Notes: a model not told the origin generated them from the sequence alone. 64,000 bases of DNA from Escherichia coli (GCF_045037415.1 NZ_CP173438.1); one strand, 5' to 3'; positions 2,104 through 6,547 are shown, counted from the stretch's first letter. Program-made: numbers and translations.

Positions 2104-5100
2104 TCAGAAGGTCACATTCAGCGTGGCCTGACCGTTATAGCCTTCAGCGCTGTTGCCGCTGACACTGTGGGCATAACCGGCCTGAACGCCCAGGGTGATA
2201 TTTTCCCGGACACGGGCTTCCAGTCCGGCCTGCAGGTCCAGTGACGTGCCATTCCGGGACGGTGAGAACGTCATGTTACTGCCGGCTGCGGCTGTACCCA
2301 TGCTCATGTCTCCCCGGGAGCTGAAGGTGCGGATAACAGAAGGCTGTACCCACCAGTTCACAGGCAGTTCACTCACACCGTGTTTTGTACTGTCGCGCAG
2401 GGTGTCACGGGATGAGGTGCCTTCACCAAAGGTCATATCGTTGTGGCTGCCCAGACGGAAACCGGCACGCACATGTTGTGCACTGCCATGCCCGAACTTC
2501 ACATAACCGGCGTTATCCTGGCCGTCATCCAGGGAAAGTCCCTGCCAGGTATACTGCAGTTGTGGCTCCAGCATCAGGTTGTCAGTGATACTGAATGGCA
2601 GACCGGTTTCCAGTGAGCCCTGCCAGCCCCGGCCCCGGGCGCGGAAGTCGTTATTGTCCGATGACGCTTTCATGCTGTGGCGGGTTCCCTGTGCCACAAT
2701 GTCAGCCCACAGGCCGGAGGACGTGTGTACCAGATTCAGGTATCCGCCCAGGCTGCCGGCATCATCCCGGACCGTGCCGGCACGGGAGCCGTCATCATCC
2801 TTAACATCAACGGAAGAATGGCCTGCAGCACCATACACTCCTGTCGTCAGTGACATACCGGCAACCTCTGTTCTGAGCAGGTCACCCTCCAGACGGACGA
2901 AGCCATAGCTGCCGCTGCTTTCCGGCGTGGCACCACGGACAATACCGCCGTTGTTATCGTGACCGAGATGGCCGCCCTGAATGCTGAGACGGACGCTGTT
3001 ATTTTCACCGTTTACACCGGTCTGATGGCTGCGGGAGCCTGCCAGAATCCGGTCATAGTCCATTGCCTGTGTCAGCATGGAGGCATACAGGGGGACTTCA
3101 GCACGATAAGCATTTTCACTGCGCAGATACCAGCTCTCATCACTGTCCCGGTTGAGGGTGTAGTTAAAGGCCCCGGCCTGCAACATATTCCCCTGGACAA
3201 AAGCCCCTTCCTCCGTGGTGGCACCGTTAATGGCCTCAACCACCTGAATACCCTTACCGGTGGTCGCCAGCCCCGTACCACTGTTGCCGGCGTTCACCAG
3301 ATTCAGGATGGTTTTTCCGGTTGCCCTGCCACCGTCAATGACCAGTCTGTCAGCATTGTTCTGCGCCATATCCGGGCGTACACGCAGGCTGATGGTGCCA
3401 TTCTGCCCGTTCAGGTTTTTCACCTGCAGAGTTGTCGGAACGAACTTCCCTGTGCGGGCGGAGGTGAAATGAATCTGTCCGGCATGGCTGAGGTCATCCA
3501 CCACCGACTGAACCGTGGCGTTATCGGGGATATTCCAGGTGGCACCGGATGTCAGGGTGACATTCGTGGGGTCAATGGCACCGTTCAGCACTGTGCTGCC
3601 GGTCAGCTTCAGGGCTGTACCGCGCTGAGCAATGACATCCGTGGTGACGGTACTGTCGTTCAGCGTCAGCGTGCCTTCATTCAGGTTGACGGCTTTCTGG
3701 GTGAGTGTGGTGTTGCTGACAGTGAGTGTGCCACTTCCTGATTTTTCCACGCTGCCGTTACCGGTAAGAGCGCCTCCCTGCAGGAGTGCATCGCCTTCAC
3801 GGATGGTCAGGGTATCGTTGTTCACCGTCTTCCCGGAAAGGGTAAGTGTGGCGCCGTTATTCAGCGTGGTGGTGCCCGCCAGTGTGCCGCCCCTGGCGGT
3901 GAACAGTCCGCCATTTACCGTGGTATCCGTGGCCGTATCACCGGCGTTCAGCGTGAATGAACTGCCTTTTTCCAGCATCAGGGCATCCGCCTGACCGCCT
4001 CCGATACTGAATGCCTTTCCGTCGCTCCGGGTACCACTGACAGCGGCACCGGAATCGGCCAGCAGTACACCGCCATTCCCCATGGATACGGTGGTGGCGG
4101 CACCACCGTTGCGGATATCCAGCGTTCCGCCATCATCCACACGGGTATTAGTGGCTGTGTGTCCGCTCAGCACATCCAGACGTCCGCCATTTTCCAGTAC
4201 GACATTATCAGCCTTACCCGCCACAACGGAGAATGCTCCCAGGCGGTTTGTGCCGGTGACGGTTGCAGCTGTACTGGTAACCAGTGCACCGCCCGTGTTC
4301 TGGGTGACATCAGACGCTTTACCGCCGGCATTCACCTGCAGCTTTCCTTTCTGGTTGATGGTGGTATGCGCGGCAGTTCCTCCTTCCTTAATCACCTGCC
4401 AGCCATCACGGTTTATCAGCGTCTCTGTTGCCGTGCCACCGTTGTGTACATACTGGTTACCCCCCTCCAGTCGGGTGTTATGTGCCTCTCCGTGTACCGT
4501 CTGGTCACCACCGGCGTAAATGAGGGTGTCCCGTGCCATCCCCGAAGACCAGATAACCTGCCGGCCATTTTTATTGATGGTGGTGGATTCAGCCGTCCCT
4601 CCGACCATCTGACCGCTGGACACATTTTCAGACTCCGGACCACCTTCTGCACCGGTGTTGACGATGGTTCCGGTTGCCAGTCCGCCATGTTTTATGGTCT
4701 GGTAACCATCCTGGTTAATAATTGTACCGGCAGCTTTCCCTCCCCCGTGTACCCACTGCTCACCTCTGTTATCCAGCGTGGTGTTCACCGCCAGTCCGTT
4801 AAGGCTCTGCCCTCCGCCATCACGAATAACCGTATCACTGGCAGTTCCTCCTGCCTGCACAATCTGACGACCATTTGCGGTGACAGTGGTGTTTCTGCCT
4901 GTGCCACCCGCTTTTATCCATTGCCCGCCGGTGTTTTCGTCACTGTCCGGCCCCAGCTCAAGCCCGGTACTGACAGTCACGCCATCAGCTGTTCCGGATA
5001 CAAACTGGTTGTCATGGTTTACCAGTGTTCCGCCATTCACTGTTTCACACGGGTGCACAACGATGTCAGCAGCCAGCACCGGGAGTGACGTGACCGCGGC

Positions 5101-5226
5101 AAGAGACAGTGCCACCGCCACACCGCCACGTTTACCCCGTGCGCGGGCCAGTTCGGAGGCAACCACGAAAGCGCCCGTAATGTGATTCCATACCAGCCTG
5201 TAGCAGGTATTCAGATGTCGTTTCAT
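2104..5226 (-). CDS. flu: antigen 43 self-associating autotransporter adhesin
   Basis: about 1040 aa; N-terminus MKRHLNTCYRLVWNH..., repetitive passenger and C-terminal barrel ending ...GYNGQATLNVTF match remembered Ag43; start set at MKR (AAGGA about 7 nt upstream), two codons inside the six-frame ORF. Confidence 0.93.
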   Translation of the reverse strand: MKRHLNTCYRLVWNHITGAFVVASELARARGKRGGVAVALSLAAVTSLPVLAADIVVHPCETVNGGTLVNHDNQFVSGTADGVTVSTGLELGPDSDENTGGQWIKAGGTGRNTTVTANGRQIVQAGGTASDTVIRDGGGQSLNGLAVNTTLDNRGEQWVHGGGKAAGTIINQDGYQTIKHGGLATGTIVNTGAEGGPESENVSSGQMVGGTAESTTINKNGRQVIWSSGMARDTLIYAGGDQTVHGEAHNTRLEGGNQYVHNGGTATETLINRDGWQVIKEGGTAAHTTINQKGKLQVNAGGKASDVTQNTGGALVTSTAATVTGTNRLGAFSVVAGKADNVVLENGGRLDVLSGHTATNTRVDDGGTLDIRNGGAATTVSMGNGGVLLADSGAAVSGTRSDGKAFSIGGGQADALMLEKGSSFTLNAGDTATDTTVNGGLFTARGGTLAGTTTLNNGATLTLSGKTVNNDTLTIREGDALLQGGALTGNGSVEKSGSGTLTVSNTTLTQKAVNLNEGTLTLNDSTVTTDVIAQRGTALKLTGSTVLNGAIDPTNVTLTSGATWNIPDNATVQSVVDDLSHAGQIHFTSARTGKFVPTTLQVKNLNGQNGTISLRVRPDMAQNNADRLVIDGGRATGKTILNLVNAGNSGTGLATTGKGIQVVEAINGATTEEGAFVQGNMLQAGAFNYTLNRDSDESWYLRSENAYRAEVPLYASMLTQAMDYDRILAGSRSHQTGVNGENNSVRLSIQGGHLGHDNNGGIVRGATPESSGSYGFVRLEGDLLRTEVAGMSLTTGVYGAAGHSSVDVKDDDGSRAGTVRDDAGSLGGYLNLVHTSSGLWADIVAQGTRHSMKASSDNNDFRARGRGWQGSLETGLPFSITDNLMLEPQLQYTWQGLSLDDGQDNAGYVKFGHGSAQHVRAGFRLGSHNDMTFGEGTSSRDTLRDSTKHGVSELPVNWWVQPSVIRTFSSRGDMSMGTAAAGSNMTFSPSRNGTSLDLQAGLEARVRENITLGVQAGYAHSVSGNSAEGYNGQATLNVTF

Positions 5227-5418
5227 CAGCATTTCCTTAATCAGAGTGAGGGTGAATAAAAAAGCCGGTATCCACAGATGTGGATACCGGCAGGTAAAGG
5301 GTTACAGTGCCGGAGGTCCGGCTGACGGAAGTTTCTGACGTGTGGCTCTGTTGTTCCCTGAATCTCATGTCTGTGTGTATCTGCGCACGTTGCTAACAGG
5401 AGTTATTATTAGCATAAC

Positions 5419-5454
5419 GATCGATATTAACGATCGGTAAAATGGGTATTGATC
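5419..5454 (-). promoter_or_regulatory. agn43 phase-variation switch: three GATC Dam sites in the OxyR-binding region
   Basis: GATC at 5419-5422, 5432-5435 and 5451-5454, about 190-230 bp upstream of the flu start, in the arrangement known for agn43. Confidence 0.75.
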
Positions 5455-5473
5455 GTTTTATTCTTTTATCAAG

Positions 5474-6433
5474 CTATTGCACGGACAAGAGAGACAGTAA
5501 CGAAAACAGCGCTTTTGTGAGCATACTTAGAGGCAGGGAGGACATCATCCACAACAGGTTCAGAAGAAGATCCAGTTCCATACCGCGCGGGCAACAGAGA
5601 ACCACTGTGTCACGGACGGCACGCAGAACCGTGCGTGCAACAGAGGCAACACAGACGCTCTCCGCTGTGTCAAATATCCGGTCCACCGCACCGGTAAACT
5701 GCTCACGGGCCTGAGCGCGGACAGATTCCGTGCGCAGCTCGTCCTGCAGGCGGGTCATCAGGGGACTGGCGGCATGGTCGGGAAGCGCTGTCATGAGCGC
5801 ACTGACCAGCGTATCCACTTCCCAGCCGGTGCGGGCCGATACGGCCACAACCGGATGTACAGGCCGGAACAGACGGAATACCGCCTCCGTTTTTTCGCGA
5901 ATGTTCTGTGCCTGTGCGGGAGAGGGCTGAATGCCGGCCATATCCCATTCATGGCAGGGCTCCGTTTTGTCGGCCTGTGTCACCACAAACAGCACCTGCT
6001 GATGTCCGCACTGCAGGATGTGTCGCCAGAAATACTCATCCACAGACAGGGCCCGGTCATCGGCTTTAATCAGCCACAGCACCAGGTCCAGTTCAGGCAG
6101 AATGTCACGGTACAGGGCTTCATACTCTGCATCCCTGTCCCGGCTCTCGCCCACCCCGGGCAGGTCAGTGATAACCATGCTGTAACCGTGACCACTCAGA
6201 CGGAAGCGCTGCACTTCCCGGGTGCCGGCGTGAACATCACTGACCGGTGTGACCTCCCCCTGAAACAGGGCATTACAGAGTGAAGATTTACCGGCCCCGC
6301 TTTTACCCATAATGCCAATCACGGGCTCGTGACGGGTGAGTTTGCGCAGATGTTCCAGGATGTGACGGGAAAGCGAGTAAGGCAGGGAGGAGAGCGGTTT
6401 TTCAATTGCCTCAATGGCATCAGACGGATTCAT
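5474..6433 (-). CDS. YeeP/YfjP/YkfA-family P-loop GTPase
   Basis: Walker A motif GIMGKSGAGKSS; upstream of flu on the same strand as yeeP is in CP4-44; ATG at MNPSD chosen, the six-frame ORF extends to a GTG at 6472. Confidence 0.8.
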   Translation of the reverse strand: MNPSDAIEAIEKPLSSLPYSLSRHILEHLRKLTRHEPVIGIMGKSGAGKSSLCNALFQGEVTPVSDVHAGTREVQRFRLSGHGYSMVITDLPGVGESRDRDAEYEALYRDILPELDLVLWLIKADDRALSVDEYFWRHILQCGHQQVLFVVTQADKTEPCHEWDMAGIQPSPAQAQNIREKTEAVFRLFRPVHPVVAVSARTGWEVDTLVSALMTALPDHAASPLMTRLQDELRTESVRAQAREQFTGAVDRIFDTAESVCVASVARTVLRAVRDTVVLCCPRGMELDLLLNLLWMMSSLPLSMLTKALFSLLSLLSVQ

Positions 6434-6547
6434 ACATGTATTCCCGGTGAAAAAAGACAAAACCCCGCACACCGGAAAGGTGGCGGGGGATCCACGGAGA
6501 TAATATCTGTCTGAAATTGTTTGGAATCGATGGGGATGTTGCGTATT

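What the first reader, a model, noticed from the sequence alone, without database searches (positions are those of the whole stretch)
2104..6472. Antigen 43 locus with an intact three-GATC switch and YeeP-type GTPase neighbour
Gene order GTPase, regulatory region, flu on one strand reproduces the CP4-44 arrangement, and the three GATC sites needed for Dam/OxyR phase variation are present at 5419-5454. This is established biology rather than a novelty, but the intact switch predicts phase-variable Ag43 expression.
Basis: established knowledge. Interest (0 to 1): 0.3.

Follow-up and report, generated by a model that had tools for sequence, protein, structure and literature searches.

The report
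Antigen 43 adhesin gene and switch
This is the well-known E. coli Antigen 43 self-sticking adhesin gene with its DNA-methylation on/off switch, sitting in a urinary-pathogen genomic island; it is ordinary, apart from a weakened-looking promoter base and a damaged neighbouring GTPase gene.

Summary
Window 2104..5226 (-) encodes a complete 1040-aa Ag43/Cah autotransporter. It is identical to RefSeq WP_000820373.1 and matches the crystallised CFT073 Ag43a passenger at 497 of 501 residues. Upstream lie three GATC sites (5451, 5432, 5419) with exactly the K-12 spacing, inside a 37-bp OxyR site that is 33/37 identical to K-12. The -35 box and TSS geometry are conserved, and the IsrC/IS102 leader ends in a strong terminator.

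- The locus lies in a pheV-type pathogenicity island, not CP4-44.
- The GTPase ORF 5474..6472 is an artefact. A 1-bp insertion at 5601 shifts the last 13 codons and runs the ORF into the flu promoter. RefSeq calls it a frameshifted pseudogene in the two identical genomes whose annotation I read.
- The -10 hexamer is AAGAAT, whereas the 10 other distinct regulatory alleles compared have TAGAAT. These include all three experimentally studied ones (K-12, CFT073-type, EC958).
- yeeR carries a 1.4-kb deletion. irmA downstream probably shares the switch.

Three GATCs in 36 bp is not beyond chance; homology carries the call.

In passing: flu coding sequences are almost GATC-free (0-2 sites against about 9 expected) in seven alleles.

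Verdict: established biology, low interest.

The parts
2104..5226 (-). flu/agn43 coding sequence: 1040-aa Ag43a-type (class C3) self-associating autotransporter. It contains an ESPR signal peptide, AIDA-repeat beta-helix passenger, AC1 autochaperone and beta-barrel.
   Evidence: Pfam ESPR, AIDA, AC_1 and Autotransporter domains. NCBIfam auto_Ag43 1858 bits, cutoff 1200. 88% aa identity to K-12 flu. RefSeq WP_000820373.1 in identical genomes. Passenger matches PDB 4KH3 at 497/501 residues.
5234..5238 (-). Shine-Dalgarno AAGGA, 7 nt upstream of the flu ATG.
   Evidence: Read directly from the sequence. Conserved in all aligned alleles.
5258..5291 (-). Intrinsic terminator inside the flu leader: 12-bp stem with 8 G-C pairs, 4-nt loop, T6 tract. 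It ends 31 nt before the ATG.
   Evidence: Terminator scan, with the same element in K-12. 3' end of the Rfam IS102/IsrC model. K-12 isrC is annotated as ending at this T tract. flu is said to be controlled by antitermination of IsrC (PMC5389530, citing Wallecha 2014).
5251..5456 (-). flu 5' leader, matching the IsrC / IS102 RNA family.
   Evidence: Rfam RF00124, 258.2 bits (gathering score 46), full-length model 1-206. MFE of 5227..5456 is -63.7 kcal/mol, z = -4.65 against shuffles.
5454..5454 (-). Inferred transcription start: the G of GATC-I, 228 nt upstream of the ATG.
   Evidence: 5'RACE in EC958 places the start 228 bp upstream of the agn43 start codon (PMC4807369). EC958 and the window have the same 228-nt geometry. 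K-12 isrC is annotated as starting at the homologous G.
5419..5456 (-). OxyR operator overlapping the three Dam sites: GATC-I 5451-5454, GATC-II 5432-5435, GATC-III 5419-5422.
   Evidence: GATC positions. 37-mer ACGATCAATACCCATTTTACCGATCGTTAATATCGAT is 33/37 identical to K-12. It matches the OxyR consensus at 13/20, against 14/20 for K-12 and 13/20 for EC958. The derived T->C is at 5444.
5460..5465 (-). -10 hexamer AAGAAT, a derived variant of TAGAAT. The changed base is at 5465.
   Evidence: Alignments of 11 distinct alleles: only the window has A at hexamer position 1. The K-12 promoter passes a simple sigma-70 scan at 9/12. The window's scores 8/12 and is not reported.
5483..5488 (-). -35 hexamer TTGTCC, followed by a 17-nt spacer.
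   Evidence: Invariant in all aligned alleles. Identified as the promoter in K-12 by the scan.
5474..6433 (-). YeeP-family GTPase gene (wild type 290 aa) with a 1-bp insertion at 5601. The insertion replaces the last 13 residues with a 42-residue tail and moves the stop from 5560 to 5474, inside the flu promoter spacer.
   Evidence: Pfam MMR_HSR1. Base-by-base comparison with Nissle 1917 WP_001069668.1. RefSeq annotates it 'frameshifted' in the identical genomes. Only the 4 top hits of 5426 genomes match all 4601 bases; the next listed hits are one base shorter.
2059..2083 (-). Perfect 11-bp hairpin GGTCCCGATCA-TCA-TGATCGGGACC, 21 nt after the flu stop codon. It carries the first two GATCs downstream of flu and has no T tract.
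   Evidence: Sequence read. GATCs at 2065 and 2074.
882..2011 (-). yeeR remnant: a 1415-bp deletion relative to EC958 removes the start and 5' part. The junction is at 2011/2012.
   Evidence: blastn against EC958. RefSeq: 'incomplete; missing N-terminus'.
351..806 (-). irmA (interleukin receptor mimic protein A), probably the distal gene of the same OxyR/Dam-controlled transcript.
   Evidence: Pfam IrmA, E = 9.8e-38. RefSeq WP_000581502.1. The agn43-yeeR-irmA operon and OxyR control were shown in EC958 (PMC4807369). Co-transcription in this allele is inferred.

Best explanation
The region is a copy of the E. coli antigen 43 locus of the Ag43a type (class C3). It is carried on a CP4-44-like module inside a pheV-type pathogenicity island of an extraintestinal pathogenic strain.

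How it most likely works:
- A sigma-70 promoter (-35 TTGTCC, 17-nt spacer, -10 AAGAAT) starts transcription at the G of the first GATC (5454).
- The first ~38 transcribed base pairs hold one OxyR operator containing three Dam sites.
- When the three GATCs are unmethylated, OxyR binds. It blocks transcription and shields the sites from Dam. This is the OFF state, and it is heritable.
- If Dam methylates the sites after replication, OxyR cannot bind and the gene is ON. The result is Ag43 phase variation.
- Transcripts must then read through a strong intrinsic terminator in the 228-nt leader. The terminated product is the IsrC/IS102 RNA.
- Read-through transcripts reach flu and probably continue through the yeeR remnant into irmA.
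- Ag43 is exported as a type Va autotransporter, and its L-shaped beta-helix passenger makes cells clump.

Shown here: the identity and integrity of every sequence element.

Inferred from homology and from experiments on other alleles: OxyR binding, methylation protection, switching, leader read-through and co-transcription of irmA.

In this particular allele, the T->A at the first base of the -10 hexamer and the T->C in the OxyR motif probably lower ON-state output or shift the switch set-point without abolishing it. The upstream GTPase is a bystander with a damaged 3' end.
For: Gene identity:
- Pfam and NCBIfam assignments.
- 88% aa identity to K-12 flu.
- 497/501 identity to the Ag43a crystal structure sequence 4KH3.
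- 100% identical DNA annotated agn43 in RefSeq genomes.

Switch:
- Three GATCs with K-12 spacing and position.
- Invariant -35 box and 17-nt spacer.
- OxyR site 33/37 identical to K-12.
- EC958, whose operator also scores 13/20, shows 121-fold agn43 derepression in an oxyR mutant. Its TSS is 228 bp upstream of the ATG, which is the G of GATC-I in the window's geometry (PMC4807369).

Mechanism of Dam/OxyR competition: PMC3764049, PMC2909390, PMC4872104.

Leader: Rfam RF00124 at 258 bits; terminator; antitermination statement (PMC5389530).

Operon with irmA: PMC4807369; gene order.

Island context.
Against: - No experiment exists on this regulatory allele in the papers I could read. All three studied alleles (K-12, CFT073-type, EC958) have TAGAAT, whereas the window has AAGAAT.
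- The promoter falls below a simple 9/12 sigma-70 threshold that the K-12 promoter passes.
- One OxyR consensus base is lost.
- The OxyR consensus match and the GATC triad are individually no better than chance, so function rests entirely on homology.
- In Nissle 1917, which carries the same 4.6 kb apart from the 1-bp GTPase insertion, Ag43a protein was detected only at low abundance relative to Ag43c (PMC11056357). That comparison was not designed to test this promoter.
Confidence: 0.88

Rival explanations
1. The switch architecture is present, but the allele is effectively a low-expression or near-silent copy. The T->A at the first position of the -10 hexamer cripples the promoter, so methylation state changes little at the protein level. 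Any Ag43 phenotype of the strain would then come from other agn43 copies.
For: The window is the only one of 11 distinct alleles with AAGAAT. The promoter scores 8/12, against 9/12 for K-12, and is missed by the scan. The first T of the -10 hexamer is one of the better conserved positions of sigma-70 promoters (established knowledge, from memory). Genomes carry a median of 2 and up to 10 agn43-like places. Ag43a is scarce in Nissle 1917 heat extracts (PMC11056357).
Against: The coding sequence is fully intact. The exact (or one-mismatch) 101-bp regulatory allele is carried by 412 of 5426 complete genomes, with no sign of decay. Many active sigma-70 promoters have 4/6 matches in the -10 hexamer, and the critical A at position 2 and T at position 6 are kept. 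No expression data for this allele were found.
Confidence: 0.2
2. The main product of the regulatory region is the ~200-nt terminated leader RNA (IsrC/IS102) acting as a small RNA in its own right. Full-length flu mRNA would be a minor, condition-dependent read-through product.
For: Full-length match to Rfam RF00124. Strong terminator with 12 pairs, 8 of them G-C, and a T6 tract. K-12 annotates isrC as a separate ncRNA. The leader folds much better than shuffles, z = -4.65. flu is described as controlled by antitermination of IsrC (PMC5389530).
Against: No trans target of IsrC is known to me. EC958 makes abundant full-length agn43-yeeR-irmA mRNA when oxyR is deleted (PMC4807369), so read-through is substantial. 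This explanation is compatible with the main one rather than exclusive of it.
Confidence: 0.1
3. The three GATCs are a chance cluster with no regulatory role.
For: 68% of shuffled windows contain at least one 3-in-36-bp cluster. The OxyR consensus match is unremarkable.
Against: Spacing and position relative to the promoter match all 10 other alleles compared, including the experimentally dissected K-12 site. The three GATCs are invariant while flanking bases vary.
Confidence: 0.01

Closest known systems
E. coli K-12 flu/agn43 with its Dam-OxyR phase switch (cryptic prophage CP4-44)
   Same: Gene order yeeP-type GTPase, regulatory region, flu, yeeR on one strand. Same -35 box, spacer length, three GATCs with 19/13-bp spacing, OxyR site 33/37 identical, and IsrC leader with terminator. 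Protein 88% identical.
   Different: The chromosomal location is a pheV-type island next to kps, not CP4-44. The passenger is class C3 rather than C1 (PMC6668479). The -10 is AAGAAT rather than TAGAAT. The leader is 6 nt longer (228 against 222 nt). K-12 yeeP is a truncated pseudogene, whereas here the GTPase is full length but frameshifted at its end.
Ag43a (c3655) of uropathogenic E. coli CFT073, PAI-CFT073-pheV; crystal structure 4KH3
   Same: Same island type and same allele family. The passenger is 497/501 identical. The GTPase protein in ATCC 25922, whose 101-bp regulatory stretch is identical to CFT073's, matches the wild type.
   Different: The CFT073/ATCC 25922-type regulatory region has TAGAAT and CCTAT, where the window has AAGAAT and CCCAT. 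The beta-domain half is mosaic: 118 substitutions over 6 kb, concentrated in 2245..3600. The window protein has G60C. CFT073 has an insertion sequence after agn43a that uncouples irmA (PMC4807369); ATCC 25922 likewise has an IS66-family element there. The window instead has a deletion inside yeeR.
agn43-yeeR-irmA operon of ST131 strain EC958
   Same: Same island and gene order. Same leader length, so the mapped TSS (228 bp upstream) falls on GATC-I. The OxyR site scores 13/20 as here. OxyR control was shown experimentally (PMC4807369).
   Different: EC958 has a different Ag43 protein (WP_023281695.1, 1039 aa), an intact 838-aa YeeR, an intact GTPase (WP_001069800.1) and the canonical TAGAAT.
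Other OxyR/Dam switches: Salmonella gtr and opvAB
   Same: OxyR binding is blocked by methylation of GATCs inside its half-sites, giving heritable ON/OFF states (PMC2909390, PMC4856963).
   Different: Those systems use alternative OxyR sites with four GATCs, and OxyR acts as both activator and repressor. agn43 has a single repressor site with three GATCs downstream of the start (PMC2909390).

Membership tests
Ag43/Cah family autotransporter adhesin (NCBIfam NF033177) | Whole-protein score above the curated equivalog cutoff | tested here: met
   1858.4 bits against a cutoff of 1200.
Ag43/Cah family autotransporter adhesin (NCBIfam NF033177) | Type Va architecture: extended signal peptide, beta-helical repeat passenger, autochaperone, C-terminal beta-barrel, in one uninterrupted ORF | tested here: met
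   ESPR 8-51, AIDA repeats, AC_1 576-693, Autotransporter 773-1018 (numbering of the 1042-codon ORF). One stop codon only.
Ag43/Cah family autotransporter adhesin (NCBIfam NF033177) | Self-association / autoaggregation activity | not testable with these tools
   Inferred from 99% identity to the Ag43a passenger, whose structure and clumping are published (PMC6668479, PMC8993888).
agn43-type Dam/OxyR phase-variation switch | Three GATC sites with conserved spacing immediately downstream of the transcription start | tested here: met
   GATCs at 5451, 5432 and 5419, with the same 19/13 spacing as K-12 and as the three other alleles for which GATC positions were tabulated; the sites are invariant in all 11 aligned alleles. 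GATC-I coincides with the inferred TSS.
agn43-type Dam/OxyR phase-variation switch | Single OxyR operator overlapping all three GATCs | tested here: met
   Met by homology: 33/37 identical to K-12. Consensus score is 13/20, equal to EC958, which is OxyR-repressed 121-fold (PMC4807369). The consensus score alone is not above chance.
agn43-type Dam/OxyR phase-variation switch | Functional sigma-70 promoter upstream of the operator | tested here: inconclusive
   The -35 box and spacer are identical to K-12. The -10 is AAGAAT rather than TAGAAT, giving 8/12 against 9/12.
agn43-type Dam/OxyR phase-variation switch | OxyR binding abolished by methylation, protection of the GATCs in OFF cells, and reversible ON/OFF switching | not testable with these tools
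   Needs EMSA, methylation mapping and reporter assays.
IsrC / IS102 RNA (Rfam RF00124) | Score above the gathering threshold over the full model, including the terminal hairpin | tested here: met
   258.2 bits against 46, model positions 1-206 of 206.
YeeP/YkfA/YfjP-type prophage GTPase | GTPase (MMR_HSR1) domain and homology to K-12 yeeP | tested here: met
   PF01926, E = 9.1e-15. The 90%-identical DNA block covers the K-12 yeeP pseudogene.
YeeP/YkfA/YfjP-type prophage GTPase | Intact reading frame | tested here: not met
   The 1-bp insertion at 5601 changes the last 13 codons and adds 29. Annotated 'frameshifted' in the two identical genomes whose annotation was read.
Cryptic prophage CP4-44 | Same element at the K-12 chromosomal site | tested here: not met
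   The locus lies between kps and the nan/iha/sat/iuc/pap genes of a pheV-type island. Only the module (GTPase-flu-yeeR...cbeA/cbtA) is shared.

The most novel reading that the evidence does not exclude
Two linked ideas remain open.

(a) This widespread Ag43a-type regulatory allele is found exactly, or with one mismatch, in 412 of 5426 complete genomes, including Nissle 1917 and an ST131 strain. It carries derived changes in the -10 hexamer and in the OxyR motif. Together these could reset the epigenetic switch to a lower ON level or a different OFF/ON bias compared with the alleles studied so far.

(b) The near-total absence of GATC from the flu coding sequence may be maintained by selection. 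Seven alleles have 0-2 sites against about 9 expected. In the window, the 3.3-kb GATC-free span runs from the switch to 27 nt past the stop codon. One possible reason is to isolate the three regulatory GATCs from SeqA and Dam activity on neighbouring sites. Another is to weaken MutH-directed mismatch repair inside a mosaic, recombining adhesin gene.
Probability: 0.12. Interest if true: 0.5.

Novelty: already known. Interest (0 to 1): 0.15.

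Why it matters
[quoted passage not shown] Finding it here adds nothing new in kind. Three practical points do follow:
- The experimentally characterised alleles (K-12, CFT073, EC958) differ from this common allele at a core promoter base. Expression and switching data should not be transferred to it uncritically.
- irmA, a vaccine-candidate cytokine-receptor mimic, probably phase-varies with Ag43 in this strain.
- The GTPase 'gene' listed by an ORF finder is a frameshift product.

Tried and rejected
- **Significance of the GATC triad.** Rejected as stand-alone evidence: 68% of shuffles have such a cluster.
- **OxyR consensus scanning as evidence.** Rejected: 13/20 is reached at 10 other places in the window and exceeded at three.
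- **Excess of regulatory substitutions.** I compared the two switch substitutions with the nearest allele (ATCC 25922/CFT073 type). Overall divergence is 2% (118 substitutions in 6 kb), so 2 in 101 bp is what is expected. No enrichment is claimed.
- **EC958 as direct evidence for this allele.** I expected EC958 (ST131) to carry the window's allele, so that published OxyR data would apply directly. It does not. It has a different Ag43 protein, an intact yeeR and TAGAAT. The data therefore support the architecture, not this allele.
- **Primary papers.** I tried to read Wallecha 2002 and 2014 and Ulett 2007. None is held. Statements about them rest on citing papers or on memory, and are marked so.
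- **GATC depletion as an isolated outlier.** Only partly upheld. GATC is the most depleted of 256 tetranucleotides in the window allele (z = -4.0) and second in K-12. Other tetranucleotides reach z = -3.3 and enrichments reach +5, so the synonymous-shuffle null is too narrow.
- **Ongoing selection against GATC.** By my own rough estimate, made without a computation, neutral divergence of 6-12% would create only about 1-3 new sites per lineage. The observed 0-2 therefore does not establish ongoing selection.
- **Literature on a GATC-free flu gene.** Only a general report of GATC-free regions of at least 1 kb in GI-pheV and other mobile elements was found (PMC4659465).

Full report
**What is in the sequence**

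The window has a 1042-codon ORF at 2104..5232 (-) and a 332-codon ORF at 5474..6472 (-).

The long ORF has the domain set of a type Va autotransporter: ESPR signal peptide, AIDA repeats, AC1 autochaperone and beta-barrel. It scores 1858 bits on the NCBIfam Ag43/Cah equivalog, whose cutoff is 1200. It is 88% identical to K-12 Flu, and the alignment starts at the third codon of the ORF. The true start is therefore the ATG at 5226, giving 1040 aa as in RefSeq WP_000820373.1. The two extra codons arise from an upstream ATG created by an A->T difference from K-12.

The passenger matches the crystallised Ag43a of CFT073 (PDB 4KH3) at 497 of 501 positions. That places the protein in class C3 of the published Ag43 classification (PMC6668479).

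**Where it is**

The 4.6-kb stretch is >=99% identical in 417 of the complete E. coli genome records searched, where it is annotated as agn43 plus 'GTPase family protein'.

Annotation of Nissle 1917 and of strain 463 (99.98% identical to the window over 60 kb) shows the neighbourhood. On one side lie kpsF/kpsE, a CbtA/CbeA toxin-antitoxin pair, radC-like and antirestriction genes, DUF905, irmA and a yeeR remnant. Then come agn43, the GTPase and yfjI. Beyond these lie IS66 copies, a nan-like sialic acid cluster, iha, sat, the aerobactin genes and pap. This is the pheV-type pathogenicity island of extraintestinal pathogenic E. coli.

The order GTPase, regulatory region, flu, yeeR does reproduce the CP4-44 module of K-12. 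The K-12 yeeP fragment lies inside a 90%-identical alignment block. The element itself is not CP4-44.

**The regulatory region**

Aligned with K-12, the intergenic region has 91% mean column identity. I aligned 11 distinct alleles: window, K-12, ATCC 25922 (whose 101-bp regulatory stretch is identical in CFT073), EC958, O104:H4, O145:H28 and five others. The following are invariant:
- the -35 hexamer TTGTCC;
- the 17-nt spacer length;
- the three GATCs and their spacing;
- the leader terminator.

The simple sigma-70 scan identifies TTGTCC-17-TAGAAT as the only promoter-like site in the K-12 region. It ends 6 nt before the annotated isrC 5' end, which is the G of the first GATC.

In ST131 strain EC958, 5'RACE put the agn43 start 228 bp upstream of the start codon (PMC4807369). 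EC958 and the window both have exactly 228 nt between the G of GATC-I and the ATG. The start in the window is therefore inferred at 5454.

The 37-bp stretch 5420..5456 is the homologue of the K-12 OxyR site and is 33/37 identical. It matches the OxyR consensus ATAGnTnnnAnCTAT-n7-ATAGnTnnnAnCTAT (given from memory, Toledano 1994) at 13 of 20 specified positions. K-12 scores 14 and EC958 scores 13. In EC958, deleting oxyR raised agn43 mRNA 121-fold (PMC4807369), so a 13/20 operator is sufficient.

**What is not beyond chance**

Three GATCs in 36 bp occur in 68% of dinucleotide-preserving shuffles of the window, and a second such cluster sits at 19891-19906. Ten other places in the window also reach 13/20 on the OxyR consensus, and three more reach 14/20. 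The call therefore rests on homology to an experimentally dissected site, not on motif statistics.

**Leader**

Window 5251..5456 (-) matches Rfam RF00124 (IS102/IsrC RNA) over the full model at 258 bits. The match ends in a 12-bp stem with 8 G-C pairs and a T6 tract, 31 nt before the flu ATG. K-12 has the same element. The leader folds with z = -4.65 against shuffles.

flu expression has been described as depending on antitermination of IsrC (PMC5389530, citing Wallecha et al. 2014, which I could not read). Full-length flu mRNA therefore needs read-through of this terminator.

**Differences from the studied alleles**

The window is the only one of the 11 alleles whose -10 hexamer is AAGAAT instead of TAGAAT (base 5465). 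It has CCCAT where most others have CCTAT or TCTAT in the first OxyR half-site (base 5444).

Its nearest relative among the alleles compared, the ATCC 25922/CFT073 type, differs from it in the 101-bp core only at these two bases. The window allele is the commoner of the two. Its 101 bp are found at >=99% identity in 412 genomes, against 57 for the CFT073 type.

The promoter scores 8/12 and falls below the scan threshold that K-12 passes. The first T of the -10 hexamer is a well-conserved, sigma-contacted position (established knowledge, from memory). A weaker ON state is therefore a reasonable inference, but it is untested.

Two substitutions in 101 bp is not an excess over the 2% divergence of the whole block.

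**The GTPase**

Compared base by base with Nissle 1917, the window has one extra A at 5601 (a T on the coding strand).
- The wild-type protein has 290 aa and ends ...RDTVVSVARAVWNWIFF.
- In the window, the last 13 residues are replaced by a 42-residue tail.
- The stop moves to 5474-5476, inside the spacer of the flu promoter and past the -35 box.

RefSeq marks the gene 'frameshifted' in the two identical genomes whose annotation I read. Only the four top-scoring genomes of 5426 match all 4601 bases; the next listed hits are one base shorter. The G domain is untouched.

The annotated start is the ATG at 6433.

**Downstream**

Relative to EC958, the window lacks 1415 bp that include the yeeR start. 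The junction is at 2011/2012. irmA (351..806) is intact.

In EC958, agn43-yeeR-irmA are co-transcribed and irmA rises 12.9-fold in an oxyR mutant (PMC4807369). No insertion sequence intervenes in the window, so irmA probably phase-varies with Ag43. This is inferred.

**Mechanism**

The most likely mechanism is the established one. OxyR bound to the unmethylated operator just downstream of the start blocks transcription and shields the GATCs from Dam, giving the OFF state. Methylation of the GATCs excludes OxyR, giving the ON state. Both states are heritable, and switching occurs at about 1e-3 per generation (PMC3764049, PMC4872104, PMC2909390).

The sequence shows all the required parts. Binding, protection and switching are not shown for this allele.

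**Seen in passing**

The flu coding sequence has no GATC at all. The 3345-bp gap between the GATCs at 2074 and 5419 is the largest in the window. It runs from the switch to 27 nt past the stop codon.

Synonymous-codon shuffles expect 8.9 +/- 2.2 sites, and none of 2000 shuffles reached zero. Seven alleles that are 87-98% identical in DNA have 0, 0, 1, 0, 2, 0 and 1 sites.

flu is the most GATC-depleted long ORF in the window (z = -3.8). The autotransporter sat has 11 sites against 11.5 expected, and the adjacent yeeR remnant has 10 against 9.2. All six Asp codons that precede a C-initial codon are GAC, and none of the six Ile codons that follow a G-ending codon is ATC.

Two cautions apply. TCGA is also absent from all seven alleles. 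Several other tetranucleotides show departures of similar size, so codon-context bias may explain part of the effect.

GATC-free stretches of at least 1 kb in GI-pheV and other mobile elements have been reported in general terms (PMC4659465). I found no statement about flu itself.

**Verdict**

The corrections are the island context, the frameshifted GTPase, the ORF boundaries, the variant -10 hexamer and the extension of the unit to irmA. Interest is low.

Noticed in passing
window 2078..5418 (flu CDS 2104..5226 plus leader): There is no GATC anywhere in the flu coding sequence or leader. This is the largest GATC gap in the window (3345 bp). About 9 sites are expected from synonymous shuffles, and 0 of 2000 shuffles reach zero. 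Seven diverged alleles have 0-2 sites, and TCGA is absent from all seven. GATC is the most depleted of 256 tetranucleotides here, although others come close. General GATC-free regions in GI-pheV are published (PMC4659465), but not this gene-level pattern, as far as I could find.
   Followed up: partly
window 5465 and 5444: Two derived substitutions lie in functional elements of the switch: -10 hexamer TAGAAT->AAGAAT and OxyR half-site CTAT->CCAT. They are unique to this allele among the 11 compared, yet the allele is present (exactly or with one mismatch) in 412 of 5426 complete genomes. The experimentally studied alleles lack both changes.
   Followed up: partly
window 5601: A 1-bp insertion frameshifts the last 13 codons of the GTPase and extends the ORF by 29 codons, across the flu -35 box and into the promoter spacer. 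Only the four top-scoring of 5426 complete genomes match the full 4601-bp query containing it.
   Followed up: yes
window 5047..5049 (codon 60 of Ag43): The substitution is Gly60->Cys, the eighth residue of the mature passenger and its only cysteine. The other six alleles examined have Gly. A lone cysteine in an autotransporter passenger is unusual. Its effect on secretion or disulfide-linked dimers is unknown.
   Followed up: no
window 2011/2012 and 882..2011: A 1415-bp deletion relative to EC958 removes the 5' part of yeeR. A 363-codon in-frame C-terminal ORF remains between flu and irmA.
   Followed up: partly
window 2059..2083: A perfect 11-bp hairpin (GGTCCCGATCA-TCA-TGATCGGGACC) lies 21 nt after the flu stop codon. 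It contains two GATCs and has no T tract. It could be an mRNA-stabilising or processing element within the operon.
   Followed up: no
window 2245..3600 versus 3849..4985: Against the ATCC 25922 allele, differences are packed into the autochaperone/beta-domain half, while 1.1 kb of passenger-coding DNA is identical. This is a clear recombination mosaic within flu.
   Followed up: no
window 19891..19906: A second cluster of three GATCs (GATCGATCAACCGATC) lies inside a degraded transposase gene next to the nan-like cluster. It shows that such clusters occur by chance.
   Followed up: partly
window 13285..15817 and about 60375..62638: An extra IS66-family copy (ISEc23-like) is present relative to Nissle 1917. 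A ~2.2-kb insertion relative to strain 463 lies near the pap end of the island.
   Followed up: no
whole window: GATC is under-represented overall: 202 observed against 253 +/- 15 in dinucleotide shuffles, and all 100 shuffles have at least 202. This is consistent with the published under-representation in GI-pheV (PMC4659465).
   Followed up: partly
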